Assembly: GCA_020724865.1 (NCBI GenBank)
Contig: DYGA01000002.1
Span: 12,032-76,031 of the forward strand
Origin: Candidatus Paceibacter sp.
GTDB lineage: Bacteria; Patescibacteriota; Patescibacteriia; S139-126
DNA: 64,000 bases
Reading direction: 5' to 3'
Shown: piece after piece, positions 7,938-55,100 of the stretch
Layout: each line of letters starts with the position of its first letter
Position numbering within the stretch: position 1 is the first letter of the stretch
Notes under the pieces: model-generated
The model's database searches: none
Seen by the model: the letters and a program-made list of their open reading frames with translations, nothing else
What the model was told of the DNA's origin: nothing
Program-made: the position numbers and the translations under genes

Positions 7938-9137
7938 ATGTATAAAAAAATTTTATTTCTACTATTTTTTGTTTCTTTATTGTTTATTCCTCAGCAAAAT
8001 GTTTTTGCCCAAGATTCATCTCAAACCAATATTTATTTTTTTTGGGGACAGGGTTGCCCTCACTGTGCTAAAGCTGAACCATTTTTGAAAAAACTTGATC
8101 AACAATACAGCGATGTCACTTTATATGATTTTGAGGTGTATTATAATCGTACTAACCAAAAATTATTACAAGAGGTGGGACGAACTTTGGGTATAAATAT
8201 TTCTGGCGTACCAGCAATTATTATTGGCGATCAGGCAATTATTGGTTTTAGTGAAACTATTACTCCCAGTGAAATAGAGCGGCGAGTAGAAATGTGTCAG
8301 CAGTTGGGTTGTCCTGATGAAATCGGTAAAATTTTAGGTATAGAAAAAAAAGAACCAATTGTTGAACCAGTGACAGAAAATATTAAATCTATCAAGATTC
8401 AAGTCCCTTTTTTACATGAGATTGAAACTAAAGATTTTTCTCTGCCAGTCCTGACAATTATATTGGGGGTATTGGACGGTTTTAATCCTTGTGCCATGTG
8501 GGTACTTTTGTTTTTAATCAGTTTACTACTGGGCATGAAAGATAAAAAGCGGATGTGGATTTTGGGCAGTGCTTTTATTATTGCTTCAGCTTTAGTTTAT
8601 TTTATTTTTATGGCCGCTTGGTTGAATTTAATAATTTTTTTAGGTTTTATAGTTTGGATCAGAGTATTGATTGGTTTGATAGCTTTGGCAGGCGGCGGAT
8701 ATAATTTGAAAGAATATTTTACCAACCCCGAAGGTGCCTGTAAAGTTACTAATACGGAAAAACGGCAAAAAGTTTTTACCAAATTGAAAGACATTACTCA
8801 ACAAAAAAGTTTTTATTTGGCTTTAGGCGGAATAATACTTTTGGCTTTTGCTGTCAATTTGGTAGAACTTGTTTGTTCAGCCGGGTTACCAGCTGTATAT
8901 ACTCAAGTTTTGGCTTTAAATGATTTAGCTAAGTGGCAATATTATCTATACATCAGTCTGTATATTTTGGTTTTTATGTTTGATGATTTATTGGTGTTTT
9001 TTGTGGCCATGACTACATTGCAGATAACTGGACTTACTACCAAATATACTCGCTACTCTCATTTAATCGGCGGAATTTTAATGGTAATTATTGGGTTATT
9101 GCTCATTTTTAAACCTGAAGCATTGATGTTTGGGTAG
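7938..9137 (+). CDS. Thioredoxin-like domain fused to a DsbD/CcdA-type thiol:disulfide transporter membrane domain
   Basis: Signal peptide, then WGQGCPHC thioredoxin motif. Membrane part has GFNPCAMWVL and VELVCSAG, the Cys-in-TM pattern of the CcdA/DsbD family. Confidence 0.65.
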   Translation: MYKKILFLLFFVSLLFIPQQNVFAQDSSQTNIYFFWGQGCPHCAKAEPFLKKLDQQYSDVTLYDFEVYYNRTNQKLLQEVGRTLGINISGVPAIIIGDQAIIGFSETITPSEIERRVEMCQQLGCPDEIGKILGIEKKEPIVEPVTENIKSIKIQVPFLHEIETKDFSLPVLTIILGVLDGFNPCAMWVLLFLISLLLGMKDKKRMWILGSAFIIASALVYFIFMAAWLNLIIFLGFIVWIRVLIGLIALAGGGYNLKEYFTNPEGACKVTNTEKRQKVFTKLKDITQQKSFYLALGGIILLAFAVNLVELVCSAGLPAVYTQVLALNDLAKWQYYLYISLYILVFMFDDLLVFFVAMTTLQITGLTTKYTRYSHLIGGILMVIIGLLLIFKPEALMFG

Positions 9138-9871: not shown

Positions 9872-9935
9872 GATATATAAAAAATTATAAATTTTAAATT
9901 ATTAATTATAAATTACTAATTATTAAATAATAAAT

Positions 9936-15039: not shown

Positions 15040-15110
15040 AATATAAATAACTAATTACTAATGATTAATAATTAGTTATTAGTAATTAATAATTAATTTT
15101 AGTATTTCTA
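15040..15110. repeat. Copy of the dispersed AT-rich intergenic repeat family (core attagtaattaataatt / aattactaatgattaat)
   Basis: aactaattactaatgattaataattagttattagtaattaataatt. Related copies at ~9895-9930, 25990-26073 (and its duplicate), 26320-26350, 28570-28600, 30270-30390, 31770-31830. Confidence 0.6.
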
Positions 15111-18067: not shown

Positions 18068-18098
18068 AAAATTATAAATTTTAAATTATAAATTTTAA

Positions 18099-21673: not shown

Positions 21674-22888
21674 TTGATGAAAATTTATAGTAAAAAAATT
21701 TTATTGTTTTTTTTCATTTTAGTGGGCTCAAGTGGCTTGCTTTTTTATATTTTACAAAAACCAACTTTTTCTGAAGAAAAAAAGGTGGAACCTGAAGCGG
21801 TTGTATTTGTGCCGCCTGACAGAATTGTTGAATATGAAATTGTGGCTAACGATACTTATGGGGTGATCATGGCTAATCAAGGCATAAGTTCTATTGATAC
21901 GGCGGCCATATATCAAGCCGCTCAAGAGCAGTACGATTTAGCAAAAATTGGTGTAGGTAAAAAAATAAAATTTTATTTTAAACCGGAAACAGACGAGTTT
22001 TATAAATTGTATTATCAAATTGATAGTGAGGAAGAGTTATGGGTAGAAAAAGGAGATAATGGTGAATGGCAAGCAGCAAGACAAGACATACCTTATGAAA
22101 TAAAAATTGTTACCAGTAGTGGGACAATTGAAAAATTTTTATATGCTGACGCTTTAGCTGCCGGAGTAGACGAGCGGGCAGTAATTGCTTGGGCAGAGAT
22201 GTTGCAGTGGAGTTTGGATTTTGCTATGGATGTACAAGTGGGTGATTCTTATAAGTTTATTTATGAACAAAGGTTTTTAAACGGTGAATATGTTATGCCC
22301 GGTAGGGTATTGGCAGGAAAATTTATTAACGCTGGTAAAGCTTATTATGGTTTTAGCTATACTGATCCCGAAGGCAATAGCGGTTACTATGATGAACAGG
22401 GTAATAATGTGCAAAAAATGTTTCTAAAAGCACCGGTAGCTTTTAAATACATTTCTAGTGGTTTTACTACTGGTGCCAGATATATTCAAGCTTTTAATAT
22501 ATCCACTGGCCATCGGGCAATTGATTATGCGGCTGCGGCTGGAACTCCAGTTCGAAGTGTGGGCGCTGGTACAGTAATTTTTGCTGGCTGGGACGGATCT
22601 TATGGCAATAAAGTAAGCATCAGGCATAATGGTACTTATACCACTAACTATGCCCATTTATCTAAAATTTTAGTAAAACGCGGACAAAAGGTTAGTCAAG
22701 GTGATACTATTGGCTTAGTTGGTTCCACCGGGTTGTCAACCGGACCGCATTTGCATTATGAAATGGTAAAAAATGGCGTAAAAATAAATCCTTTACAGGA
22801 AGTATTGCCCCCCGGAGAACCTTTAAAAACTGAGTATCAGGATGATTATTTTGCTCAGATTGCTGTTTGGCAAGAACAACTTGATTAG
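21674..22888 (+). CDS. M23-family (LytM-like) metallopeptidase with an N-terminal membrane anchor
   Basis: HRAIDYAA...GAGTVIFAGWDGSYGNKVSIRH...GSTGLSTGPHLHYE (HxxxD and HxH motifs). Confidence 0.8.
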   Translation: MMKIYSKKILLFFFILVGSSGLLFYILQKPTFSEEKKVEPEAVVFVPPDRIVEYEIVANDTYGVIMANQGISSIDTAAIYQAAQEQYDLAKIGVGKKIKFYFKPETDEFYKLYYQIDSEEELWVEKGDNGEWQAARQDIPYEIKIVTSSGTIEKFLYADALAAGVDERAVIAWAEMLQWSLDFAMDVQVGDSYKFIYEQRFLNGEYVMPGRVLAGKFINAGKAYYGFSYTDPEGNSGYYDEQGNNVQKMFLKAPVAFKYISSGFTTGARYIQAFNISTGHRAIDYAAAAGTPVRSVGAGTVIFAGWDGSYGNKVSIRHNGTYTTNYAHLSKILVKRGQKVSQGDTIGLVGSTGLSTGPHLHYEMVKNGVKINPLQEVLPPGEPLKTEYQDDYFAQIAVWQEQLD

Positions 22889-22968
22889 AAATAAATTGAC
22901 AACTTGTATTTTTATATCTAAGATATTCTAATTGTTTTGTTTTTTTAAAAATAAATATAGGAGAAAGA

Positions 22969-23163
22969 GTGATGAAAAAGAAAGTAATGTTATTTTTATC
23001 AGTTTTATTTTTATTTTTTGGTTTATCATTTTGTGTGTTGTCTTCGTTTGTTCCTTTGACAATTATCCCAATATCTGGAGATCTTGCTTCCTTGGCTGGT
23101 TTGTTATTTTTGTTTATCTCTTTATGGTTATTGTTTAGGGCTGATCGAGTTAACAGCAATTAA
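22969..23163 (+). CDS. Small hydrophobic protein (two TM helices)
   Basis: 64 aa ORF with an upstream aggag RBS; weak support. Confidence 0.3.
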   Translation: MMKKKVMLFLSVLFLFFGLSFCVLSSFVPLTIIPISGDLASLAGLLFLFISLWLLFRADRVNSN

Positions 23164-23164
23164 T

Positions 23165-24037
23165 TTATGCTTTGCCTTTAGGCAAAGCTTTTTTATTGGT
23201 TTTGATAAATTTTTCAAAGCTAGCTAGATTGTTGAAATATTTTATTAACGGAGAATTAATTTTTTTTTCACTTTCTTTCCAACCATTACCGCCGAAACCA
23301 AGAAAGATATTGTGTTTTTTAGCATAGGTAACTAAATCATTTAAAAATTTTTTATTATTAATTTTAGAATAAGTATTAGTGATACCAATAAAATGTGGTT
23401 GAATTTTTTTTGCGGCTTTAATAATTTCTGTGGCACTGATATTAATACCCAAAATATAATTTTTCCAACCATTGGCTTTTAGTAAGACAGCTATCATTTG
23501 CAATGGAATTTCATGATGATCGCCTTCAGCACAGGCCAGTATAGCTTTGGGTGCTTGGTTGTTAGGTTCTGGTATGATTTGTTCCAATGCGAACAATTGT
23601 AACCGTAAAATAAAACTCATTTGGTGTTCTTCAAAGATAGATATTTTGTTTTGCGCCCAATCGTTCCCAATTTTTACTAGCGTTGGCGTAAAAATATTTT
23701 CCAGTATTTTAATAACAGGATAATTTTTTAAAAATAATTGTTCAATAAATTTTTGGGCGCCAGCAGTATCAGATTTTTTCAAATAATCATAAAATTTAGG
23801 CCATAAAGAATCATTTATTTCTTTGGTTTTTAAGAGCCGAGATAAGGTGTAAGACTGATTAGCTAGTTTTGGATAGTTTTTAATAAATTTTTGTAATTCA
23901 ATTTTACTAATCCGTCGATGGCCGCCAGTTGTTTTTTGAGCTGGCAGCATACCTTTGTCTGCCCATCTTTTAATAGTGGAAACGTTAACGCCAAAGAGGC
24001 GAGCTAATTGGGGTGGTGTAAAATGCACGTTTTGCAT
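23165..24037 (-). CDS. MerR/excisionase-type HTH regulator with a C-terminal cobalamin (B12)-binding domain (CarH/LitR-like architecture)
   Basis: N-terminal HTH (LARLFGVNVSTIKRWADKGML). Middle helical bundle with a conserved Trp. C-terminal DxHxxG motif (AEGDHHEIPLQMIAVLLKANGW) plus ...GFGGNGW. Confidence 0.6.
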   Translation of the reverse strand: MQNVHFTPPQLARLFGVNVSTIKRWADKGMLPAQKTTGGHRRISKIELQKFIKNYPKLANQSYTLSRLLKTKEINDSLWPKFYDYLKKSDTAGAQKFIEQLFLKNYPVIKILENIFTPTLVKIGNDWAQNKISIFEEHQMSFILRLQLFALEQIIPEPNNQAPKAILACAEGDHHEIPLQMIAVLLKANGWKNYILGINISATEIIKAAKKIQPHFIGITNTYSKINNKKFLNDLVTYAKKHNIFLGFGGNGWKESEKKINSPLIKYFNNLASFEKFIKTNKKALPKGKA

Positions 24038-24103
24038 GTTTATAGTTTAACAGCTATATTAAATCTACGCAAATAGTGCGTTTTAATAATTAACCAAAAA
24101 AAT

Positions 24104-24958
24104 ATGAAAAAAATATTGTTTTCTTTAGTTATAGCCGTTTTGGTAGGAGGATTATTTACTCCTAGTGTCAAGGCTTACAGTGATACTAAAGGCAAGGTCC
24201 TTTTGCAAGTTGAGGATAAAGGTCAACTTTGGTATATCGCCAATGACGGCAAATCTAAGTTTTATTTAGGTTCGCCAGTTGATATGTTTCGCCTGATGCG
24301 TTTTCAGGGTGTGGGTATTTCCAATAGCGATTTAGCTAAAATTCCTGAAGCTGGTAAATCGCAGATGGGTGATAAAAATTTTGCCAATCTGCAAAAAGGT
24401 AAAATTTTATTACAGGTAGAGCAAAATGGTGAAGCCTGGTACGTTCATCCGCAAACCGGTGAAAGACATTATTTAGGCACACCTCAAGCAGCGTTTAATC
24501 TGTTTAAATCAATTGCAAGTGGCGCCAGTAATGCTCATTTGAGTAAAATACCTGAAGTTAAAGATATTACCTTGACCGCAATTAATGCCAAATCTTTTAA
24601 TACTTTGGTAGCAGCTCTTAGTGCCGCTGGATTGGCAGATGTTTTGCAAAATAGCGGACCATTTACAGTTTTTGCTCCCACTGATGAAGCTTTTGCTAAA
24701 TTACCAGCTGGTACGGTAGAATCTTTGCTAAATGATATTGATCAATTGACTAAAATATTAACTTACCATGTTGTTCCCGGTAAAGTATTAGCTAAGGATG
24801 TAGTTAAATTAAATTCGGCCCCAACAGTTAATGGTAAAAATATTAGTATTCAAGTTGATAATGGAAAAGTTTTGATTGATAATGCCAAAGTCACAGTAAC
24901 TGATATTATGGCTACCAATGGTGTAATTCATATTATAGATAGCGTTCTTCTACCGTAG
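24104..24958 (+). CDS. Secreted protein with two ~55-aa N-terminal repeats and a C-terminal fasciclin (FAS1) domain
   Basis: Signal peptide. Repeats KGKVLLQVEDKGQLWYI.../KGKILLQVEQNGEAWYV... FAS1 hallmarks TVFAPTDEAF...HVV...VIHIIDSVLLP. Confidence 0.75.
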   Translation: MKKILFSLVIAVLVGGLFTPSVKAYSDTKGKVLLQVEDKGQLWYIANDGKSKFYLGSPVDMFRLMRFQGVGISNSDLAKIPEAGKSQMGDKNFANLQKGKILLQVEQNGEAWYVHPQTGERHYLGTPQAAFNLFKSIASGASNAHLSKIPEVKDITLTAINAKSFNTLVAALSAAGLADVLQNSGPFTVFAPTDEAFAKLPAGTVESLLNDIDQLTKILTYHVVPGKVLAKDVVKLNSAPTVNGKNISIQVDNGKVLIDNAKVTVTDIMATNGVIHIIDSVLLP

Positions 24959-24978
24959 GATTTAGTTCTTTTAGAAAA

Positions 24979-25008
24979 AAAGTCCTAAAATTTAGGACTT
25001 TTTTTTAT
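24979..25008 (+). terminator. Rho-independent terminator
   Basis: aaagtcctaaa-attt-taggacttt followed by tttttt. Confidence 0.7.
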
Positions 25009-25055
25009 AATTAATATATATGTTATACTAGAAATATAAAGATTAATATTTATCT

Positions 25056-25298
25056 ATGATTGATTATCAATTAGCTTTGAACATAATAAAAATTGCCGGT
25101 ATTACCAATATTTTGTTTTTACTACTGACTTTTTTTTCTTGTCGTTGTTTAATGGGTCCCAAATTATCACAAAAGTTAGTACAGTATGAATGGTTTAAAA
25201 AGTTTTATCGCTGGCATTGTTATTTTTGGTGGGGATTTTATATTTCCGTAATTATCCACACTATATTTGCTTGGTATTTGTTTGGCTTTGGTTTTTAG
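25056..25298 (+). CDS. Small membrane protein
   Basis: 80 aa, two hydrophobic helices. Confidence 0.35.
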   Translation: MIDYQLALNIIKIAGITNILFLLLTFFSCRCLMGPKLSQKLVQYEWFKKFYRWHCYFWWGFYISVIIHTIFAWYLFGFGF

Positions 25299-25458
25299 AC
25301 TACGGAATAAAATTTAGTCACTGATATTTAAATGATTAAAATACCTGGAAAAAATAATTAGATAATAAAAATATTTTAAGCAATTTGTCAGGTATTTACG
25401 CGAGAGCGGATTAAATTTTTACCCTACACAAAATTTGTTTCAGTCAAAAATATAATAT

Positions 25459-25950
25459 ATGTATCGGATAATTTTTTATATTTTTTTATTTTTTGTTTTT
25501 ACAGGTTGTGCCACCCAGTCAACATTTACTAATCAGAATATTAATAATAATTATATGCAATTAACTAGTAAAGATTTTTCCGATCATACATATTTATCTT
25601 CTGAATTTACTTGTGATGGCGAAAACAAAAGACCCCAATTAGCTTGGTCACAAGTGCCTACAGCAACCAAGTCGCTGGCTTTGGCCATGTTTGATCCTGA
25701 CGCTCCAGGAGATGGGTTTTTACATTGGTTGGTAGTAAATTTACCGCCGCAGGATTTATCATTGGCTAGCTCTGACAATTTACCTTCACCGGCAATGCAG
25801 ATAAAAAATGATGCAGGAAAATTTGAATATTTTGGACCTTGTCCGCCTCAGGGAGTACATCGTTATCAGTTTACTTTGTATGCTTTAGATGTTCCATCTA
25901 TAAATCCAACAGATTATCAAGATTTTTGCAGCAGATTAATGGACATATAG
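25459..25950 (+). CDS. YbhB/YbcL-family PEBP (Raf-kinase-inhibitor-like) lipoprotein
   Basis: Lipobox FTGCAT. DPDAP and HRY motifs (MFDPDAPGDGFLHW...GVHRYQFTLYALD). Confidence 0.8.
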   Translation: MYRIIFYIFLFFVFTGCATQSTFTNQNINNNYMQLTSKDFSDHTYLSSEFTCDGENKRPQLAWSQVPTATKSLALAMFDPDAPGDGFLHWLVVNLPPQDLSLASSDNLPSPAMQIKNDAGKFEYFGPCPPQGVHRYQFTLYALDVPSINPTDYQDFCSRLMDI

Positions 25951-26327
25951 TTGAACAGGTAAGGCTGACTGGTTTGTATGAGAGAAAGAGATGATTATCA
26001 ATTACTAATTACTAATGATTAATGAATTTTTAATTAGTTAATTAATAAATTAAAACATTGATTAGTAATTAATAATTTGAATATTTTGGACCTTGTCCGC
26101 CTCAGGGAGTACATCGTTATCAGTTTACTTTGTATGCTTTAGATGTTCCATCTATAAATCCAACAGATTATCAAGATTTTTGCAGCAGATTAATGGACAT
26201 ATAGTTGAACAGGTAAGGCTGACTGGTTTGTATGAGAGAAAGAGATGATTATCAATTACTAATTACTAATGATTAATGAATTTTTAATTAGTTAATTAAT
26301 AAATTAAAACATTGATTAGTAATTAAT
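25820..26327. repeat. Perfect tandem duplication, 2 x 254 bp (25820-26073 and 26074-26327). It includes the last ~130 nt of the PEBP gene plus its downstream AT-rich repeat element.
   Basis: Base-by-base comparison of the two copies in the window; no mismatches seen. Confidence 0.85.
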
Positions 26328-26415
26328 AATTAGTTATTAGTAATTTATTAAAACCTTGTTTTATTTTGTTTAAAGTGTTATTATAATTTTGTTTAATTTT
26401 TATATTTAAGATATT

Positions 26416-26563
26416 TATGTCAAAAAAGAAAAAGTCACGATCTAAAAATCCTTCTACCGGAGTGAAATTACCAAAATTTAAAATGAGCCGCCAAAGTAAA
26501 GAATCGATGCATAGTGGTAAGTTGGCTAAAAAAACTTATGGCCGTTTTCGCAATAAAAAATAG
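26416..26563 (+). CDS. Unannotated small, highly basic protein (48 aa, MSKKKKSRSKNPSTGVKLPKFKMSRQSKESMHSGKLAKKTYGRFRNKK) with its own terminator
   Basis: Below the ORF-track size cutoff. A clean rho-independent terminator follows at 26586-26610. No family recognised. Confidence 0.35.
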
Positions 26564-26585
26564 AAAGTAAGTTTTTTATAATATA

Positions 26586-26610
26586 AAACCTGCTTGACGC
26601 AGGTTTTTTT
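26586..26610 (+). terminator. Rho-independent terminator
   Basis: aaacctgc-ttgac-gcaggttt followed by tttt. Confidence 0.7.
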
Positions 26611-26693
26611 GACAAAAAATTTATTTTTATATAAAATATAAAATTGTTTTATTGAACTTTTACAATTAAATAACATAAAAAAGGAGTAAAAAA

Positions 26694-27227
26694 ATGGAAA
26701 AAATTATTAGCGCAGTTATTTGCGGCCAGGCACAATTATTGTTGTATACTAAATTATTAGCCGATGGCAAGAAGAAATATTTTGTAGTGAATGCTAACAA
26801 CTCAGAAACGCCAGGTGGTCATGAAATTTCTTATATAAACTATAAAAAATCAATTGAAAAACATGATCATGTTGTTTTTTTAGTTGATAATGATACAAAA
26901 TATCGCGCTTTAATGATTGAGGGTTTAGATATCCCTTGGGAACCTCTGTTTGATTTATTTTTATTTGAAATGAAAATTGAAAAAATTTTTCAGACACTGG
27001 TTGGTTTAAATGAAAAAATTGATCATTACGAACTATTGGAAGTTGAAAAAGCTTTTTATAGTGATCCTGGGTTGTATGTAAATATAAGAAATAAATTAGA
27101 ATATTGGGCTGAAGATCATTCTCTGCCAATCAATGTTATTGCTAGCGTGGAAAAAATTTGCCAGCAACACGGCTATATTAAATTGGAACAATTATTAAAG
27201 TATTTAACTAATAAAGCTTTAGTTTAA
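26694..27227 (+). CDS. Hypothetical cytoplasmic protein
   Basis: 177 aa; strong RBS aaaaaggag. Confidence 0.5.
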   Translation: MEKIISAVICGQAQLLLYTKLLADGKKKYFVVNANNSETPGGHEISYINYKKSIEKHDHVVFLVDNDTKYRALMIEGLDIPWEPLFDLFLFEMKIEKIFQTLVGLNEKIDHYELLEVEKAFYSDPGLYVNIRNKLEYWAEDHSLPINVIASVEKICQQHGYIKLEQLLKYLTNKALV

Positions 27228-27233
27228 AAAATA

Positions 27234-27262
27234 AAACTGAAAACCATTGGTTTTCAGTTTTT
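27234..27262 (+). terminator. Rho-independent terminator
   Basis: aaaactgaaaacc-attg-gttttcagtttt followed by T. Confidence 0.7.
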
Positions 27263-27297
27263 TATTTGAATTTTGGTGATATGCTAAAATTGAATTT

Positions 27298-27678
27298 ATG
27301 AAAGATTATATTATCAGCGGGCAGGTAATCCATGGTTTTGACAAAGGTAAAAGCATGGGTTTTCCTACTTATAATTTACATTTAAATGCTGATTATCCTC
27401 TGGAAGATTGGCAGGGAGTTTGGTGTAGTTTGACTTATTATCGGGGACAAAAATTGTTTGGAGTTACGCACATAGGTCCAGTGCGGATATTTCAGGAAGA
27501 AAAAATAAGAGTGGAAACCCACTTGTTAGATTGGCAGGGAGATTTGTATGGTGAACAGCTGCAGGTTGAATTATTAGTAAAACTGCGAGATACGATAGAT
27601 TTTACCAACGAAACTGAGCTAATTAGACAAGTAATGGAGGATATCAGACAAGCTCGAGCTTATTTTAAGATTGAATAG
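27298..27678 (+). CDS. Monofunctional riboflavin kinase (flavokinase domain)
   Basis: GKSMGFPTYNL...THLLDWQGDLYGEQLQVELLVKLRDTIDFTNETELIRQVMEDIRQAR matches the conserved flavokinase pattern (GFPTxN; T/EAHLLDF.GDLYG; KLR.E.KF.S...L..Q...D). Confidence 0.75.
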   Translation: MKDYIISGQVIHGFDKGKSMGFPTYNLHLNADYPLEDWQGVWCSLTYYRGQKLFGVTHIGPVRIFQEEKIRVETHLLDWQGDLYGEQLQVELLVKLRDTIDFTNETELIRQVMEDIRQARAYFKIE

Positions 27679-27704
27679 TTTTATCTAAAAAAATTAGTAA
27701 AAGA

Positions 27705-27742
27705 AAAAACCGATTGCCTCGCAATCGGTTGAGATTTTTTTG
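27705..27742 (+). terminator. Rho-independent terminator
   Basis: aaccgattgc-ctc-gcaatcggtt followed by gagattttttt. Confidence 0.65.
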
Positions 27743-27824
27743 GTTTGTATAATGTGCTTATGTTTTTATAATATTGGAATTTTTAAATTGGGTCAAGAGA
27801 AAACTGTGGATAACTATCAAATTA

Positions 27825-27860
27825 AAAGCCGAAACTTTTGGTCTCGGCTTTAGAATTTTT
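27825..27860 (-). terminator. Terminator-like hairpin for the minus-strand gene 27901..28344
   Basis: gccgaaac/gtttcggc-type stem with a T-run on the minus strand. Confidence 0.4.
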
Positions 27861-27900
27861 ACTCTTTTTTAAAATTTATTTCACTAAATAAGCTCTCTCC

Positions 27901-28344
27901 TTATTCGCATATAAAAATTTCTTCATAATCAATTGCCACCAAATCTCCTGGTAAGGTTTGAAATAACCAAATTTCTCTATTTGTTTTGTCAGCAAATTTA
28001 TCAAGGTGGGCGGGAATTTTATTTTTAGCAACCAGGGTTAAGTTATAGAGTATAAACGGATCGCCAAAGCCTAGCGTATAGTTTTTACCAGTAGGTAAGT
28101 CTTTGTGGGGCCTAGTTTGATTGCAAGCGCAGGGTAGAAAGTTGTTTTTTGCGGAAAATTGTTCCAGAGGTATTTCACTTACCAAAGTAATAGTAAAAGG
28201 TGATTCAGCAATATAACCATCACTGGTATAACAAAATGTTTTTTTTCGTAAAGTGTGGTTGATCGGCAAAATTTTTACGGCAGACATTTCTTCTCTCATG
28301 TCTTTTCTCCTATTTAGTGAAGTAATAAGTTGTTTAAGGGACAA
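27901..28344 (-). CDS. Hypothetical protein
   Basis: 147 aa ORF; no motif recognised. Confidence 0.45.
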   Translation of the reverse strand: MSLKQLITSLNRRKDMREEMSAVKILPINHTLRKKTFCYTSDGYIAESPFTITLVSEIPLEQFSAKNNFLPCACNQTRPHKDLPTGKNYTLGFGDPFILYNLTLVAKNKIPAHLDKFADKTNREIWLFQTLPGDLVAIDYEEIFICE

Positions 28345-28670
28345 TTAGAAAATTGTATTTATTTTTTTATAAAAAGTCAAGAAAAATATGGTAGGAGATA
28401 GGATTTAAGATTCAGGATTCAGGAGATAGGATATAGAATAATTAAAATTTATAAATTAAATACTAATTGACAAATACTAAATTCAAAGCACTAAATCCTA
28501 AATAATTTTTAAATTCAAATTATTTAAATTCAAAACAATATAGAAGTCATAAGTTTTGAATATTAGAATTTATTATTTATTTAATTAGTTATTAGTAATT
28601 TTATATAATTTTTACCCTTGAATTTTTATGGTAGCAAAGTTAAACTAAACCCACTTATATTTTTTAAAAA

Positions 28671-29360
28671 ATGACAGAGAAACAATTAAATCATTTAGCA
28701 ATTATTTTGGATGGTAATAGGCGTTGGGCTAAAGCTCGTGGATTACCCAGTTTATTTGGTCATAAAGAAGGAGTTGAGGCAGTCAAACGGACAATAGATG
28801 CTTGTATAAAGTATAAAATTAAATATTTGACGGTGTATGCTTTTTCTACGGAAAATTGGCAACGTTCAGAGGAAGAAGTTGGTTATCTGATGGGACTGGC
28901 TTTAGAGAATATTGGCGGGGGTATAGATTATTTCAACGAACGGGGAGTGAAGTTAAAAATTTTTGGTCGACTTGATAATTTAGAACCAAAATTAGCCAAG
29001 GCCTTCGAAAAAGCAGTTGCTGCTACTGCGACCAATGAGGTATTAAATTTTAATGTTTGTTTCAATTATGGCGGCCGGTCCGAAATTACTCAAGCTATTA
29101 GACAAATAATAAAAACTGGTATTAAAGCAGATGAAGTAACTGAAGAGCTAGTTTCTAATTATTTATATAGTGCTGGCCAACCTGAGCCTGATATGATTGT
29201 TAGAACCAGTGGGGAAGTGAGATTATCCAATTTTTTACCTTGGCAGTCAGTGTATAGTGAATTTTATTTTCCCTCCTATCACTGGCCGGATTTTGATGAG
29301 TCTAAGGTAAAAGAGGTTATTGAAGAATTTAGTCAAAGGCAACGACGGTTTGGAAAATAA
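28671..29360 (+). CDS. uppS: Isoprenyl transferase / undecaprenyl-diphosphate synthase
   Basis: AIILDGNRRWAK...; conserved cis-prenyltransferase core and C-terminal RFG. Confidence 0.9.
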   Translation: MTEKQLNHLAIILDGNRRWAKARGLPSLFGHKEGVEAVKRTIDACIKYKIKYLTVYAFSTENWQRSEEEVGYLMGLALENIGGGIDYFNERGVKLKIFGRLDNLEPKLAKAFEKAVAATATNEVLNFNVCFNYGGRSEITQAIRQIIKTGIKADEVTEELVSNYLYSAGQPEPDMIVRTSGEVRLSNFLPWQSVYSEFYFPSYHWPDFDESKVKEVIEEFSQRQRRFGK

Positions 29361-29460
29361 ATTTTTTAGTTAATAGTGTTAAGTCTATTTCTATTAATAT
29401 AAAAATCTTACTAAAGTTACACTTTTTGGTTTTTTCCCAAATATTCACTATAAATTCATA

Positions 29461-29470
29461 AGTGGTATAA
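29461..29470 (+). promoter_or_regulatory. Extended -10 element (TGgTATAAT) upstream of the secreted-protein gene
   Basis: agtggtataatgg, 30 nt before the ATG at 29500. Confidence 0.45.
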
Positions 29471-29499
29471 TGGAAGTGCTGATTATTAAGTATTAATTT

Positions 29500-30207
29500 A
29501 TGAAAAAAAATAAGTATTTTATTGTAGTAAGTTTGTTTATTTTGGCATTAGTTTTGCTAGCTGGCAATGTTCAAGCCAGAAAAGGAGAAGATGACAACCA
29601 GCCGGTAAATAGTGCCGCTGCCCAAGCACCAGGATTGAAATTGCGCGGTAATGGCAGTGTGGACGATACGCAACCAAATGCTCTTTTATCCACTTCTACA
29701 GGTACTTCAACCGCTACTTCTACAGCAACTACTACGCCGACCACAACTCCACCAGTACAAAATCGCAATCGTGCCTCGATTAATGCTTTGGAACACAGAA
29801 GTGCAGTGGCCAATTTTGTCCAAGGATTATTAAAAGTTGCAGACAGAGAGCCGGGCGGAATTGGTGGACAGGTGAGAGAAGTGGCCAGAGCACAAAGTTC
29901 ATCTACGGAAACAGTAGTGCAGGCCATGGAAAAAGTGCAAACCAGAAGTAAAATAAAAACCTTTTTGTTTGGTTCGGATTATAAAAACTTAGGTAAGTTG
30001 CGCAGTGAAATGGTGCAGACCAGAAACAGATTGGAGCAATTAAATAGATTGCTCAGTGAAGTCACAAATGAAGCAGATAAAACTGAACTGCAAAATCAAA
30101 TCTCAACTTTAGAACAAGAACAGGAAAAGATTCAGACTTTTATTGCCCAAAAAGAACAAGAAGGAAAATATAGTTTGTTTGGCTGGTTGATGAAATTATT
30201 TAATTAG
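29500..30207 (+). CDS. Secreted protein with a Thr/Ala/Pro-rich low-complexity linker and a C-terminal coiled coil
   Basis: Signal peptide. TSTGTSTATSTATTTPTTTPP linker. Heptad-like C-terminus. Confidence 0.55.
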   Translation: MKKNKYFIVVSLFILALVLLAGNVQARKGEDDNQPVNSAAAQAPGLKLRGNGSVDDTQPNALLSTSTGTSTATSTATTTPTTTPPVQNRNRASINALEHRSAVANFVQGLLKVADREPGGIGGQVREVARAQSSSTETVVQAMEKVQTRSKIKTFLFGSDYKNLGKLRSEMVQTRNRLEQLNRLLSEVTNEADKTELQNQISTLEQEQEKIQTFIAQKEQEGKYSLFGWLMKLFN

Positions 30208-30237
30208 GGTTTAGGAACTAGGATACAGGATATAGTA

Positions 30238-30270
30238 AAAACTCCTCGCCTTATGGTTGGGGAGTTTTTT
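30238..30270 (+). terminator. Rho-independent terminator
   Basis: aaaactcc-tcgccttatggttgg-ggagtttttt. Confidence 0.6.
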
Positions 30271-30291
30271 AATTATTAATTATTAATAACT

Positions 30292-30311
30292 CCTGCCTAC
30301 CGGTAGGCAGG
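30292..30311. repeat. Perfect 20-nt GC-rich palindrome cctgcctaccggtaggcagg
   Basis: Read directly. Sister of the palindrome at 32504-32523. Confidence 0.8.
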
Positions 30312-30589
30312 AATGAATTTTAAATTATTTAATTAATAAATTAAGTCATTGATTAGTAATTCGTCATTAGTAATTAGTAATTTATTTTTTTAATAGTTTG
30401 TCAAAAACGCCAGTTTATTTTACTATTAAATCCTGAAATCACCTTGAGTAGGGTACAAGTTTAGAATGATAATAAGATGATAATAATCCTAACTGTCATG
30501 CTGAACTTGTTTCAGCATCTAAAAATAGACCCTGAAACAAGTTCAGGGTGACAAGGGTGAATAAGTTCAGGGTGTCATAATTATATACT

Positions 30590-31213
30590 ATGCAAAAGTG
30601 GTTAGAAAAAATTAGACAAGCTATGGGCAAGCAACCCATGTTTTGGCGTTGGCTGGGAATTTTATTGATATTTTTTGGTTTAGTTATTATTTGGCGGGCA
30701 CAAATGCCAATTAGTAGTCCGACTGATTATGAAAATTATGGAGAACTTAATATTTTACCTTCAGGTGAGGAAATGGATTTAACTCCAGTGGATTTGTCTG
30801 GTATAGATCTGACTAGTAAGAATGGTAATTGGATTGTGATTCCTAAAATGGGAGTGGATAGCGCGATTTTTGAAGGAGGGGAAGAAATGCTCAATCAAGG
30901 TGTGTGGCATTTGCCCAGAACTTCAACACCAGATCAAGGTGGTAATACTGTCTTGTCAGCTCATCGTTGGTTATATAAACCGCCGGATCCCAGGACTTTT
31001 TGGAATATTGACAAAATAGAGGTTGGTGATGAAGTGTATGTTAAATGGCAAGATAAAGAATATACTTATCGGGTAATATCTACTGAAGTGGTGACGCCGG
31101 ATCGGGTGGATATTTTGCGTCCGACTAAAGAACCAATTTTAACTTTTTTTTCTTGCACGCCACTTTATTCAACTTCGCATCGGTTGGTAGTAAAAGCGGA
31201 ACTGGTTGAATAA
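30590..31213 (+). CDS. Sortase-family transpeptidase with an N-terminal TM anchor
   Basis: Catalytic triad context: LSAHR (His), TFFSCTP (the Cys of the TLxTC motif), and a C-terminal Arg (RLVVKAELV). Confidence 0.75.
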   Translation: MQKWLEKIRQAMGKQPMFWRWLGILLIFFGLVIIWRAQMPISSPTDYENYGELNILPSGEEMDLTPVDLSGIDLTSKNGNWIVIPKMGVDSAIFEGGEEMLNQGVWHLPRTSTPDQGGNTVLSAHRWLYKPPDPRTFWNIDKIEVGDEVYVKWQDKEYTYRVISTEVVTPDRVDILRPTKEPILTFFSCTPLYSTSHRLVVKAELVE

Positions 31214-31247
31214 AAAAAAATGTGAAATTAATTTCACATTTTTTTAA
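31212..31247. terminator. Bidirectional terminator (A-run, hairpin, T-run)
   Basis: aaaaaaaaatgtgaaattaatttcacattttttt. Confidence 0.65.
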
Positions 31248-31767: not shown

Positions 31768-31854
31768 GGGGAATAATTTATTAATTACTAATTTTTAATT
31801 GCTAATAACTAATTTAATTTTACAATTCTATATCCTAAATTCTAGATTCTACTC

Positions 31855-46079: not shown

Positions 46080-46122
46080 TTTATAATTTAAAATTTATAA
46101 TTTTGTTTACTATTTTCTAGTT

Positions 46123-52136: not shown

Positions 52137-55100
52137 ATGCAATTATTTTCTTTTCCGCAAAGCAGAATTTCGGAAAAACATTGTGCTTTTCCTGTTTTTG
52201 GTTCTCATTTTTTTAAATCATTTATAAATAATTTTCTAGCTACAATTATTTTGGGAGCTATTTTTTTTGTTCCTACTTTGGTTTCAGCGCAGGGTGTTGA
52301 TTTCGGATTGGGTTATGGCAGCGCAATTGGTTTGGGTACACAGGATATTAGGGAAACTGTAGCCAGAATTATCAAGATTGCTTTGGGGATTTTGGGCATT
52401 ATTGTTACTTTGATAATTATTTATGGTGGTTATGTTTGGATGACCGCGGGTGGTAGTGAACAAAAAGTTAGCTTAGCCAAAAAAATATTAATCAATGGGG
52501 TAATCGGTTTGGTTATTATTATTTTAGCTTACGCTTTGACAGTTTGGATTTTTAGAATAATTATTGGTGGTACGACTGGTGGCGGGAGTGGCAGTTGTGT
52601 TGAAGGTCAAATTAGCGGCTGTACCCGCTGTGTGGGCGGCACCTGGATATATGATGGGAGTATTCCTGGTTGTGTCTTGCCCGGAGCAGATTTTCGGGTG
52701 AAAAATATTCAAACAACTCACGGAGGAAATAACCCCGCTCAAGATGTTTATTTGTGTTCCCGGATACAATCAAATTTTAGCAATCGTATTGCTGCTCAAT
52801 CAGTAGCCGATGCTTTAAATGCTAATCAATTGAGAATTGATACCTTTGCTGGTAATTGGCAGGTGACCAGTAATGTTTTAACTTTCAAACATGATGATAA
52901 TTTATTTTCCATAAATACTGCCTATAGATTATTACTGCCTCGACAAGGTAATACCACACCATTGTTTGATCAAAACAACTTAAATTTAACCCAATGTGAT
53001 CCAATTGTGGGTTGTGCCAGTACTTTGGAGCATTTTACTTGGGATTTTGTTACTGGAGAAGATAATGATGATGTTGCTCCTGAAATAACCAATACTTATC
53101 CAGTATCTGATATAACCAGTCCAACTTATCCTGATCGTAATGTATCTCGTTCGCCAATAATGGAGGTAAATTTTTCGGAAAGTATTGATGCTACTTCAGT
53201 GGCTGATAGTAACGGTAATCCATTGGCTGGAGTAATAACTTTGGAGCGATTAAGCGATCGGGGAGGTAGCGTTGATTTAACTATACCTAACAATCAATTG
53301 GAAGTATATTTTACTAGCAATGGTTTTCGTTTTAATTTAATTGAACCAAATTTACTCGATAGTTTCCGTTGGTATCGAATTACTGTCCAAGGCGTAGAAG
53401 ATTTATGTGGTAATCAAATGGCTGCGCCCAGAGTCTGGGAGTTTCAAACCAATGACAGTTCCCCAGGGGTAAGAACTTGGTATCCTACCGGGACCAATCA
53501 GTGTTTGGATGTTGATGTAATTGTTGGTTTTAATAGTTCAATGTTTGATCAACAAGTTACTTTTGTTATTTCTGGCAGTGACGGCAGTGTTTATAGCGCC
53601 ACAATGAGACCATCCTTATTGGAACCAGGACCTTATCAGGTAGCTGGCAGCGGTGGTAGCTTATCCGTAGCTGATCCGGGGCAACCTTATAGTAACAATT
53701 TTAAATCTTTTGTTTTTAGAGCAAATAATGGTTGGCGCGCTAATACCACTTATTCTGTGACAATAACTACTGATTTAGTGATTAATACCAATGGTGATAC
53801 TTTGTCACATAATTGGAATTTTAGCACCTCGGATGCTGCTAGTTGTGTTTGTTCACCTTATATAATGTCGATTAATCCTAATCAGGGAATGGCCGGTCAG
53901 TGTGTGACGGTTCAAGGTAGATGTTTTACTGGTACTTCAGCTAAACCAGCTGAAATTACGAATGTATCAATTAATGGTCAAACTGTAACCGTTGGTGGTT
54001 CTGATAGTAATTATTTTACTACCAGCATTCCTGACAATTTACCAGTCGGCACGCAAGCGCCGGTGGTTGCCACTATTACTTATCAAGATCCAGAATTGGG
54101 GAGTATTACCAGTAATAACAATGTTAATTATTATGTTAATCAACCGGGTATATATAATGGTCCTTGCTTATGGTCAATAGTGCCATCACTTGGTTGCGCT
54201 GATACTAGTGTTACTTTAAATGGTATTAGATTTGGTACTGATCCGGGTAATTATCAAACTGATCAAAATAATGTAACTTTCAATTTAAACCGCAGAGCTA
54301 GGCAGTCAGATTTTAGTTTGTGGTCAGACACTTCAATTCGTACCCGGGTGCCTCAGGCAACAGTAGATGGTAATGTTTATGTAACTGCCAATAGTTTAGT
54401 AACCAATGGCGTGCCTTTTGATATGTCTTGTGGATCAGGAGGTGCCTGTTCGGCCGATCCTAATATTTGTAGTCCTAACCCCACCAGTTGCGCTGTTGGT
54501 TACGAATGTAATACTAGTTGTATTTGCCAAGCAGTAGGTGGGAGCGTAGGCGACCCTTGTTCTTCAGATCCCAATAGTTGTGTGCCAGACGATACTTTAT
54601 GTTCGAGTTCTTTGTTTTGTGATCCTAATAGTTGTACTTGTCAATCAAATGGTGAAACCACAACTCGATTTAACGTGATTGCTAATTGGCCGACTTGTGA
54701 AGGTGTGTGTGTAAATTCTGAAGTGGGTTTAAGATTTTCTACCAGCGTTGATCCGACTACTGTTACCAATGCCAATATTGCCATATTTGATTATCGGGAT
54801 AGTGGTTACACCCAAATGGTAGGCGAAGAACAAATTACTGTTTTCCTTAATTCTAGCACTAATGAAGTTTATATTTATCCCAACGGTGGTTTGTCTCGTG
54901 GTTATTATATGAGAGTGGTAGTTAGAAATGGAATTTTAAGTAGTAGCGGACAAACAATCCAGAATTTAAATTTTGATGAAGACGGTAACGGGGTAAATGA
55001 TAGTTATGCTTGGACCTTTAGTGCCGGTAACGAGACTTGTACTTTGACGGCAATAGAAAATAGTCCTGTCCTGATGACTTTCAATAACATCAACCAAAAT

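What the first reader, a model, noticed from the sequence alone, without database searches (positions are those of the whole stretch)
25820..26327. Perfect 254-bp tandem duplication spanning a gene 3' end and an intergenic repeat element
Two identical 254-bp copies with no mismatches, so very recent. Each copy contains the last ~130 nt of the PEBP gene plus a copy of the dispersed AT-rich repeat (attgattagtaattaataatt). The junction falls inside the AT-rich repeat, suggesting the repeat family mediates slippage or recombination. Possible assembly artefact versus genuine duplication needs reads.
Basis: seen in the sequence. Interest (0 to 1): 0.5.

Follow-up and report, generated by a model that had tools for sequence, protein, structure and literature searches.

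The report
Young microhomology-flanked 254-bp tandem duplication
A 254-base stretch covering the tail of an already broken PEBP gene and part of an AT-rich hairpin-forming spacer sits twice, head to tail, in this uncultivated Patescibacteria genome; the join is probably real rather than an assembly error, but it is an ordinary, probably neutral slippage-type duplication that another assembly collapses to one copy.

Summary
Window 25820-26073 and 26074-26327 are identical (254 bp, 0 mismatches), and a 4-nt microhomology (AATT) marks both borders.

Each unit holds three parts:
- the last 131 nt of a PEBP/YbhB-type ORF, which is itself frameshifted at a T5 run (sister strains have T6);
- 44 nt of the ancestral reading frame;
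- 79 nt of an AT-rich quasi-palindromic spacer.

An independent JGI contig (346 kb) is 100% identical on both flanks but carries one copy. However, k=31 Logan contigs from at least four independent sequencing projects stop exactly at 25849 and restart exactly at 26302. My de Bruijn simulation puts branch nodes at those positions only if the copy-to-copy junction is present. The junction is therefore very probably in real reads, and the single-copy contig is most likely a collapsed loop.

A second perfect tandem duplication (261 bp, 57791-58312) behaves the same way.

The left end lies in coding sequence with no AT-rich repeat. Recombination between repeat copies is therefore not supported. Microhomology-mediated slippage fits, perhaps aided by the hairpin.

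No function is indicated. This is a new instance of a well-known mutation class. Copy number and fixation cannot be settled without reads.

The parts
25459..25950 (+). PEBP / YbhB-YbcL-type lipoprotein ORF (163 aa as it stands), truncated by a frameshift
   Evidence: Pfam PF01161, E 5.6e-34, but only profile positions 2-107 of 135. Adding one T restores 2-135/135, E 1e-37. The restored C-terminus FLQQINGHIVEQVRLTGLYERKR is conserved in homologues.
25923..25927 (+). T5 run, the site of the 1-nt deletion that shifts the PEBP frame. The same T5 is in copy 2 at 26177-26181.
   Evidence: CAAGATTTTTGCAGCAG in the window (both copies) and in the JGI contig. CAAGATTTTTTGCAGCAG (T6) in sister-strain contigs L017, L037 and L038.
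25951..25994 (+). Remainder of the ancestral PEBP reading frame (now out of frame), ending at the original TGA stop
   Evidence: Translation of the shifted frame and alignment to homologues. L017 has TAA at the same position.
25820..26073 (.). Tandem duplication, copy 1 (254 bp)
26074..26327 (.). Tandem duplication, copy 2 (254 bp, identical to copy 1)
26328..26331 (.). AATT microhomology, also at 25820-25823 and 26074-26077. It flanks the single-copy segment in the ancestral arrangement.
   Evidence: Sequence. The TRF array runs to 26331. Chance of 4 nt or more is 0.027.
25997..26079 (.). Copy of the AT-rich quasi-palindromic spacer element, cut off within its right arm by the junction
   Evidence: nhmmer E 5.8e-11 to the complete element. 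It still folds using the inner arms 26000-26016 / 26061-26077, z = -4.4.
26251..26348 (.). Complete AT-rich quasi-palindromic spacer element. The outer arms are 26251-26297 / 26302-26348. The inner arms are 26254-26270 / 26315-26331, and the inner right arm ends at the duplication border.
   Evidence: the repeat finder I2 (47 nt, 77%) and I20 (17 nt, 94%). DNA fold -14.7 kcal/mol, z = -3.4. No Rfam family.
26417..26563 (+). Downstream gene for a 48-aa Lys/Arg-rich protein. Its upstream region 26332-26416 is untouched by the duplication.
   Evidence: ORF. It is conserved, with the same position after PEBP, in L021 and L022. No Pfam match.
30293..30385 (.). Second long copy of the same AT-rich element family elsewhere in the window (about 89% identical over 75 nt)
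   Evidence: family D5; E 6.3e-08

Best explanation
This is a genuine, very recent microhomology-mediated tandem duplication (1x to 2x) in the chromosome of an uncultivated Patescibacteria (CPR) bacterium. In the ancestral arrangement, a 254-bp segment was flanked by AATT at both ends. The segment held the 3' part of a PEBP gene, plus the first 79 nt of an AT-rich quasi-palindromic spacer. I infer that a nascent strand ending in AATT at the end of the hairpin's inner right arm came loose during replication. It re-annealed to the AATT 254 nt upstream, and the segment was copied a second time. Because the PEBP gene was already inactivated by a frameshift and the promoter-proximal DNA of the downstream gene is untouched, the duplication is most likely neutral. 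Assemblers treat it as a loop: one public contig shows the loop skipped (one copy), and this window shows it traversed once (two copies). Shown: the repeat, the microhomology, the single-copy allele and the graph break points. Inferred: slippage as the mechanism, the role of the hairpin, and neutrality. Unknown: the true copy number (2 or more) and whether the duplication is fixed or polymorphic.
For: (1) Two perfect 254-bp copies with 4-nt AATT border microhomology. Chance of 4 nt or more is 0.027. (2) A single-copy counterpart exists. JGI contig Ga0246236_1000010 is 100% identical to window 22440-31227 except for one unit. Sister strains L017 and L059 (96% identity) are also single-copy. (3) Logan contigs cannot contain a repeated 31-mer, and k-mers seen only once are dropped (PMC12424806). 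My k=31 graph of the window has branch nodes at 25820-25849 (in-degree 2) and 26302-26331 (out-degree 2). The version collapsed to one copy has no branch node anywhere in 25000-27000. (4) The observed contig ends match. Contigs 99.96-100% identical to the window end at exactly 25849 in SRR24079451, SRR5011273, SRR23332758 and SRR18669184. They start at exactly 26302 in SRR5011275, SRR18669185 and SRR5011273. A deletion or replacement variant would put the breaks at 25823 and 26328 instead. (5) The second perfect tandem duplication (57791-58312) gives the same signature. It is absent from the JGI contig (2588 aa versus 2675 aa). Logan contigs end at 57820 and start at 58804, both predicted nodes, and 57820 is not a node in the JGI-like version. 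(6) The window is independent of the JGI contig in the sense that its versions are not on record. (7) The right border coincides with the end of the 17-nt, 94%-complementary inner arm of the spacer hairpin. (8) GC skew is positive throughout, consistent with the + strand being the leading strand. (9) Microhomology-mediated tandem duplication (MTD) is reported as the dominant route to tandem duplications in bacteria and other organisms.
Against: No independent assembly containing the junction was found. Two metagenome scans returned nothing, and look-ups of window-specific products returned nothing. The only long contig of the same strain has one copy. Both perfect duplications differ between the two assemblies in the same direction, which could also reflect an assembler habit. 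One run (DRR859893, L063) gives a 100%-identical contig that passes 25849 without breaking, so the junction is missing or too rare there. Two contigs end or start a few bases off (25838, 26305). The evidence for junction reads is indirect, resting on contig ends rather than on the reads themselves. A 4-nt microhomology in 70% A+T DNA is only modestly unlikely (p about 0.03).
Confidence: 0.78

Rival explanations
1. Assembly artefact in the window's source. The genome has one copy, and the second was created by an assembler or curator, either by going round a spurious loop or by joining two contigs end to end without trimming a 254-bp overlap.
For: The JGI contig is identical on both flanks with one copy. 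The same holds for the other perfect tandem duplication. No other record holds the junction or the window-specific 2675-aa protein. One Logan contig passes the left border unbroken.
Against: Contigs from at least four unrelated sequencing projects break at exactly 25849 and 26302. These positions exist as k=31 branch nodes only if the junction k-mers occur at least twice in those reads. A length of 254 bp is not a usual k-mer overlap. A second locus shows the same exact signature.
Confidence: 0.1
2. The duplication is real but subclonal or polymorphic. Single-copy and duplicated genomes coexist, so both assemblies are correct for part of the population, as expected for a reversible microhomology-mediated tandem duplication.
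For: A single-copy contig and a two-copy contig exist with otherwise identical flanks. A back-edge present in only two or more reads is enough to break Logan contigs. DRR859893 shows no break. MTDs are described as frequently subclonal and rapidly reverting (PMC8639346).
Against: Short-read assemblers collapse such loops regardless of copy number, so the single-copy contig does not show that a single-copy genome exists. The break recurs in nearly every run that holds this strain. DRR859893 looks like a low-coverage sample (929-bp contig).
Confidence: 0.35
3. One reading: homologous or unequal recombination between two copies of the dispersed AT-rich repeat family produced the duplication.
For: The right border lies inside an AT-rich element that has relatives elsewhere.
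Against: The left border (25820) is in unique PEBP coding sequence. No copy of the element lies upstream of or at 25820 in the window, the JGI contig or the sister strains. The borders share only 4 nt.
Confidence: 0.03
4. Selected, functional amplification. Doubling the palindromic spacer (a terminator, a protein-binding site or an upstream element of the 48-aa protein gene) changes expression and is maintained by selection.
For: The type A spacer is identical in all 87 aligned positions between the window and the species-level relative L021, although the neighbouring PEBP proteins are only 68% identical. This suggests constraint or homogenisation. The hairpin folds better than shuffles.
Against: The extra copy of the element is truncated. 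The DNA from 26332 to the start codon of the downstream gene is unchanged. Most of the unit is a dead gene fragment. No promoter or terminator enrichment was found, and no RNA family. Close relatives manage with one copy.
Confidence: 0.04

Closest known systems
[quoted passage not shown]
   Same: A single-copy segment flanked by a short perfect match becomes a perfect head-to-tail 2x repeat that keeps one copy of the microhomology at each border. A single-copy allele exists in close relatives. The event is young and possibly subclonal.
   Different: At 254 bp the unit may be longer than most reported MTDs, which I recall as mostly shorter (my recollection, not checked). Formation and reversion rates were not measured here. 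One border sits at the end of a hairpin arm, which is not part of the MTD definition.
RecA-independent slipped-strand misalignment or template switching at short repeats and quasi-palindromes, from the E. coli and Salmonella literature on short-junction duplications
   Same: Very short junction homology, with a nearby structure-forming inverted repeat that could stall or displace the nascent strand.
   Different: There is no genetic evidence on RecA dependence in this organism. This is a direct tandem duplication, not a tandem inversion duplication.
Collapsed tandem repeats in short-read de Bruijn assemblies
   Same: A perfect repeat longer than k forms a loop. Contigs either stop at the loop (Logan) or go through it a fixed number of times (JGI contig one copy, window two).
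   Different: This describes how the locus is represented, not its biology. Here the loop's back-edge appears to be supported by reads from several projects.
REP/BIME-type and other dispersed intergenic palindromic elements of bacteria
   Same: The AT-rich spacer is an imperfect palindrome, strictly intergenic, with related copies at other intergenic sites and in a related species.
   Different: It is extremely A+T-rich and built from 7-nt-periodic TTAGTAA-like motifs. Only two long copies occur in 64 kb. No associated transposase was looked for, and membership was not established.

Membership tests
Microhomology-mediated tandem duplication (MTD) | Head-to-tail 1x to 2x duplication with no intervening or lost bases | tested here: met
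   254-bp copies at 25820-26073 and 26074-26327, 100% identical, 0 indels
Microhomology-mediated tandem duplication (MTD) | Perfect microhomology of at least 1 bp at the breakpoints (the definition used in 10.64898/2026.02.28.708716) | tested here: met
   AATT at 25820-25823, 26074-26077 and 26328-31. P(4 nt or more) = 0.027 for random segments.
Microhomology-mediated tandem duplication (MTD) | A single-copy allele exists in which the segment is flanked by the microhomology pair | tested here: met
   JGI contig L001 (100% identical flanks, one unit) and sister strains L017 and L059
Microhomology-mediated tandem duplication (MTD) | The junction is present in sequencing reads (not an assembly product); frequent reversion | tested here: inconclusive
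   Indirect support only: Logan contig ends at 25849 and 26302 match the simulated k=31 branch nodes. Reads were not available, and reversion cannot be tested.
Assembly artefact (spurious duplication) | Junction k-mers absent from independent read sets, so that contigs of the same strain run through the site unbroken | tested here: not met
   Four runs break at exactly 25849 and three start at exactly 26302. Only DRR859893 runs through 25849.
Unequal homologous recombination between dispersed repeats | Homologous repeat copies at both end-points of the duplicated segment | tested here: not met
   The left end-point is unique PEBP coding DNA. Only 4 nt are shared between the borders.
PEBP / YbhB-YbcL family (Pfam PF01161), for the gene whose 3' end is duplicated | Significant match to the PBP domain | tested here: met
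   E 5.6e-34, 117.8 bits against a cut-off of 24. Homologues up to 84% identical.
PEBP / YbhB-YbcL family (Pfam PF01161), for the gene whose 3' end is duplicated | Intact full-length domain in one reading frame | tested here: not met
   Only profile positions 2-107 of 135 are in frame. The last 28 positions lie in another frame after the T5 run. Sister strains have T6.
REP/BIME- or MITE-like dispersed palindromic element, for the AT-rich spacer | Imperfect palindrome able to form a hairpin | tested here: met
   47-nt arms at 77% and 17-nt arms at 94% complementarity. DNA fold z = -3.4 and -4.4.
REP/BIME- or MITE-like dispersed palindromic element, for the AT-rich spacer | Many dispersed copies per genome | tested here: inconclusive
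   Two long copies (26251-26348, 30293-30385) plus short motif clusters at about five other intergenic sites in 64 kb. TTAGTAATTA with 1 mismatch or fewer occurs 64 times against 20 expected. The whole genome was not available.
REP/BIME- or MITE-like dispersed palindromic element, for the AT-rich spacer | Associated transposase (RAYT), or terminal inverted repeats with target-site duplications | not tested
   Not searched for. Nothing of the kind was noticed next to the copies.

The most novel reading that the evidence does not exclude
The AT-rich quasi-palindromic spacers of this Patescibacteria lineage might be a conserved, exchangeable element family. It exists in two sequence types (A: TTAGTAA-based; B: TTTATAA-based) that do not follow strain or species relationships. 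The type A spacers of the window and of L021, a different species, are identical at all 87 aligned positions. Their hairpins might act as hotspots where replication slips, which would make them drivers of structural variation such as this duplication.
Probability: 0.1. Interest if true: 0.45.

Novelty: new member of a known kind. Interest (0 to 1): 0.15.

Why it matters
Biologically this matters little. The duplication is a young and probably neutral structural variant in a decaying gene and its spacer, produced by a mechanism already regarded as the main source of tandem duplications.

Its practical value is methodological. It shows that perfect tandem duplications of about 250 bp are silently collapsed in a 346-kb public metagenome contig. 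It also shows that the exact end coordinates of k=31 Logan contigs can serve as a read-free test for whether such a junction exists in raw data. The same window contains a second case, one that adds an 87-aa repeat to a giant surface protein. That case could matter for surface-protein length variation in CPR bacteria.

Tried and rejected
- **Metagenome scans.** A 30-mer from the unit start and the 29-mer junction both gave 0 hits. That collection evidently lacks these samples, so nothing can be concluded from it.
- **Exact-protein look-ups.** Products a Logan loop contig or the window's own source might carry were not on record: the 42-aa PEBP tail, the 51-aa shifted-frame ORF and the 2675-aa giant protein. 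The 163-aa ORF is on record only on the JGI contig. A further contig of 50-200 kb carrying the neighbouring proteins was hidden by the tool's de-duplication and could not be inspected.
- **Literature search.** A search for the sample and run accessions found no papers.
- **GTDB genome scan.** No genome of the same species holds this PEBP. The nearest are 68-71% identical.
- **Rfam.** Nothing lies inside the duplication. Three sub-threshold hits lie at 26529-26630.
- **Promoter and terminator scan.** There are fewer promoter-like sites than in shuffles and no terminator in the spacer.
- **Alternative genetic code (TGA = Trp or Gly).** I considered this for the TGG-to-TGA change in L017 and rejected it. 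TGA in the window aligns with TAA in L017 at the PEBP stop, and long ORFs are intact under table 11.
- **Programmed -1 frameshifting or transcriptional slippage at the T5 run.** I considered this and set it aside. T5 is short, relatives simply have T6, and a sister strain carries other inactivating changes.
- **Target-site duplication of a mobile element.** Rejected: 254 bp is far too long, and nothing is inserted between the copies.
- **Planted or edited sequence.** The exact agreement with break points in independent runs argues against it.

Full report
**1. The observation**

The window contains one tandem array in 24000-28000. It spans 25820-26331, with period 254, 2.0 copies, 100% matches and no indels. 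The copies are 25820-26073 and 26074-26327, and a string comparison confirms they are identical.

The match continues 4 nt beyond copy 2, so AATT occurs at 25820-25823, 26074-26077 and 26328-26331. It does not continue to the left, where A at 25819 faces T at 26073. The ancestral single-copy segment was therefore flanked by a 4-nt microhomology. For random 254-bp segments of this window, microhomology of 4 nt or more occurs in 2.7% of cases.

**2. What is inside the unit**

The ORF at 25459-25950 (163 aa) is a PEBP/YbhB-YbcL-type protein with a lipoprotein-like N-terminus. It matches Pfam PF01161 at E 5.6e-34, but only over profile positions 2-107 of 135.

Adding one T to the T5 run at 25923-25927 joins it to the frame that ends at 25994. 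That restores positions 2-135 (E 1e-37). It also restores a C-terminus, FLQQINGHIVEQVRLTGLYERKR, that is conserved in homologues. Three sister-strain contigs have T6, while the window (both copies) and the JGI contig have T5. The gene is therefore frameshifted.

A 96%-identical sister strain (L017, and NCBI GCA_037440425.1 L059) keeps T6. It has instead lost the start codon (ATG to ATA) and gained a stop at the conserved HW tryptophan (TGG to TGA). The gene is decaying independently in two lineages.

Each unit is thus made of three parts:
- 131 nt of the ORF's 3' end;
- 44 nt of the old reading frame;
- 79 nt of the spacer.

**3. The spacer element**

The complete spacer (26251-26348) is an A+T-rich imperfect palindrome. 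It has 47-nt arms at 77% complementarity and inner 17-nt arms at 94% (26254-26270 / 26315-26331). The DNA fold gives z = -3.4.

The inner right arm ends at 26331, which is exactly the right limit of the repeat. Copy 1 keeps a truncated element that still folds (z = -4.4).

A second long copy lies at 30293-30385. Short clusters of the TTAGTAATTA motif lie at about five other intergenic sites, with 64 matches against 20 expected. There is no Rfam match and no excess of promoter or terminator patterns.

**4. Artefact or genuine?**

*Evidence that could point to an artefact.* Exact-protein look-ups retrieved a 346-kb JGI contig (sample 3300029893). It is 100% identical to window 22440-31227, except that it has one unit. 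The window also holds a second perfect tandem duplication (261 bp, 57791-58312, inside a 2675-aa surface-protein gene). This too is single in the JGI contig, which encodes 2588 aa. The JGI sequence equals the window minus 58078-58338, with no mismatch. Taken alone, this could mean that either assembly is wrong.

*The test that decides it.* Logan contigs are built at k = 31, never contain the same 31-mer twice, and discard k-mers seen only once (PMC12424806). I built the k = 31 graph of the window. With the duplications present, it has branch nodes at four relevant positions:
- 25820-25849 (two predecessors);
- 26302-26331 (two successors);
- 57791-57820;
- 58804-58833.

With the PEBP duplication collapsed, there is no branch node anywhere in 25000-27000. 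In the JGI-like version, 57791-57820 is not a node.

*What the Logan contigs show.* All contigs listed here are 99.96-100% identical to the window.

| Position | Behaviour | Runs (locus) |
|---|---|---|
| 25849 | contig ends | SRR24079451 (L007/L061), SRR5011273 (L008), SRR23332758 (L012), SRR18669184 (L060) |
| 26302 | contig starts | SRR5011275 (L002), SRR18669185 (L004), SRR5011273 (L019) |
| 57820 | contig ends | SRR5011275, SRR32929652, SRR24079451 (L050-L052) |
| 58804 | contig starts | SRR5011275, SRR6488387, SRR23332757 (L040, L044, L046) |

A deletion or replacement variant would instead place the breaks at 25823 and 26328. The topology seen is a back-edge from the end of the unit to its start, which means a tandem junction is present at least twice in the reads of each run.

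*Exceptions.* One contig ends at 25838 and one starts at 26305. One 929-bp contig from DRR859893 runs through 25849 to 25916, which means either low coverage or a single-copy population.

*Conclusion.* The junction is very probably real, and the JGI contig most likely shows a collapsed loop. Whether the duplication is fixed, polymorphic or present in more than two copies cannot be decided without reads.

**5. Mechanism**

The two borders share only AATT, and the left one lies in unique coding DNA. Recombination between copies of the AT-rich family is therefore excluded.

The anatomy meets the published definition of a microhomology-mediated tandem duplication. It has a perfect 1x to 2x repeat, a microhomology arm of at least 1 bp, and a single-copy allele flanked by the pair.

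I infer replication slippage. GC skew is positive across the whole window, so the + strand is probably the leading strand. A nascent 3' end at ...AATT (26331 in ancestral coordinates), just past the hairpin's inner arm, could re-pair with the AATT 254 nt behind and be extended again. The role of the hairpin is suggested only by the coincidence of coordinates.

Nothing indicates a function. The duplicated gene part is dead, copy 2 has no start, the shifted-frame 51-aa ORFs are not on record as genes anywhere, and the DNA between 26332 and the downstream 48-aa gene is unchanged.

**6. Organism and context**

The window carries ordinary chromosomal genes: copA-type ATPase, relA/spoT, topA, mfd, der and hisS. 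It also has sortase, fasciclin, LytR and T4SS-pilin-type surface proteins.

The nearest named HisS relatives (57-60% identity) are all Patescibacteria, namely Kerfeldbacteria, Komeilibacteria and Buchananbacteria. The two nearest GTDB genomes are titled "uncultured Gammaproteobacteria", which is probably a mislabel.

**7. Comparison and verdict**

This is a new instance of a well-known mutation class, sitting in a pseudogene tail and a spacer. It is not surprising to a specialist and opens no long-standing question.

Two side observations are mildly interesting. First, short-read contigs silently collapse such duplications, and Logan contig ends reveal them. Second, the spacer occurs in two sequence types whose distribution does not follow relatedness. 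Type A is in the window and in L021 (PEBP 68% identical), with all 87 aligned positions identical apart from a 28-nt indel. Type B is in the 96%-identical sister strain and in L022.

Noticed in passing
window 57791-58312 (repeat run to 58327), inside ORF 52137-60164: A second perfect tandem duplication: 261 bp, which is 87 codons in frame. It adds one repeat to a 2675-aa Big_5/T4SS-pilin-type surface protein. The JGI contig lacks it (2588 aa) and equals the window minus 58078-58338. Logan contigs end at 57820 and start at 58804, as the k=31 graph predicts.
   Followed up: yes
window 25923-25927 (and 26177-26181); L017 2767; L059: The PEBP gene is frameshifted at a T5 run, where sister strains have T6. 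The 96%-identical sister strain instead has ATG to ATA at the start and TGG to TGA at the conserved HW motif. This is independent decay of the same gene.
   Followed up: yes
window 25995-26350; L021 4540-4625; L022 4440-4535; L017 2845-2940: The spacer after PEBP comes in two sequence types that do not follow relatedness. Type A is in the window and L021: all 87 aligned positions are identical apart from a 28-nt indel, although the PEBP proteins are only 68% identical. Type B is in the 96%-identical sister strain, in L018/L038 and in L022. This suggests exchange, homogenisation or strong constraint.
   Followed up: partly
window 9899-9926, 15052-15095, 28585-28601, 30270-30385, 31778-31812; also 18069-18093 and 46080-46103: Intergenic clusters of 7-nt-periodic A+T-rich motifs, often as inverted pairs. 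The TTAGTAATTA type has 64 matches against 20 expected. A TTTATAATTT type also occurs. L021 has another copy at 7962-8049.
   Followed up: partly
L063 (DRR859893), = window 24988-25916: A 100%-identical Logan contig runs through the left duplication border without breaking, unlike four other runs. This is a hint that some populations are single-copy, or simply that coverage is low.
   Followed up: partly
window 26417-26563; L021 4684-4830; L022 4604-4750: A conserved 48-aa Lys/Arg-rich protein gene always follows PEBP. It has no Pfam family, and its upstream region CCTTGTTTTATTTT...TATAAT is conserved across species.
   Followed up: no
L021, L022 (GTDB genomes CAZBLW01, CAZUKA01): The record titles say "uncultured Gammaproteobacteria bacterium". 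Gene content and the nearest named HisS relatives point to Patescibacteria/CPR instead, so this is a probable taxonomic mislabel.
   Followed up: partly
L037/L038 (ERR15113708, SRR32929652) versus window 22900-25050: A related strain with an intact PEBP (P0001) lacks the MerR/B12-binding regulator and fasciclin genes between the M23 peptidase and the 80-aa gene. The 3' part of its PEBP (about 78 codons) encodes a protein identical to the corrected window sequence, while the 5' half is divergent. This points to mosaic recombination.
   Followed up: no
window 31214-31245: The only other k=31 branch nodes in the window outside the two duplications. They lie just downstream of the ORF at 30590-31213. 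I did not check whether Logan contigs end there, because the loci I hold were cut at 31227 by the flank limit.
   Followed up: no
window 1-64000: GC skew is positive in every 2-kb bin (cumulative skew rises monotonically to 4.5). The whole window therefore lies on one replichore, with the + strand presumably the leading strand.
   Followed up: no
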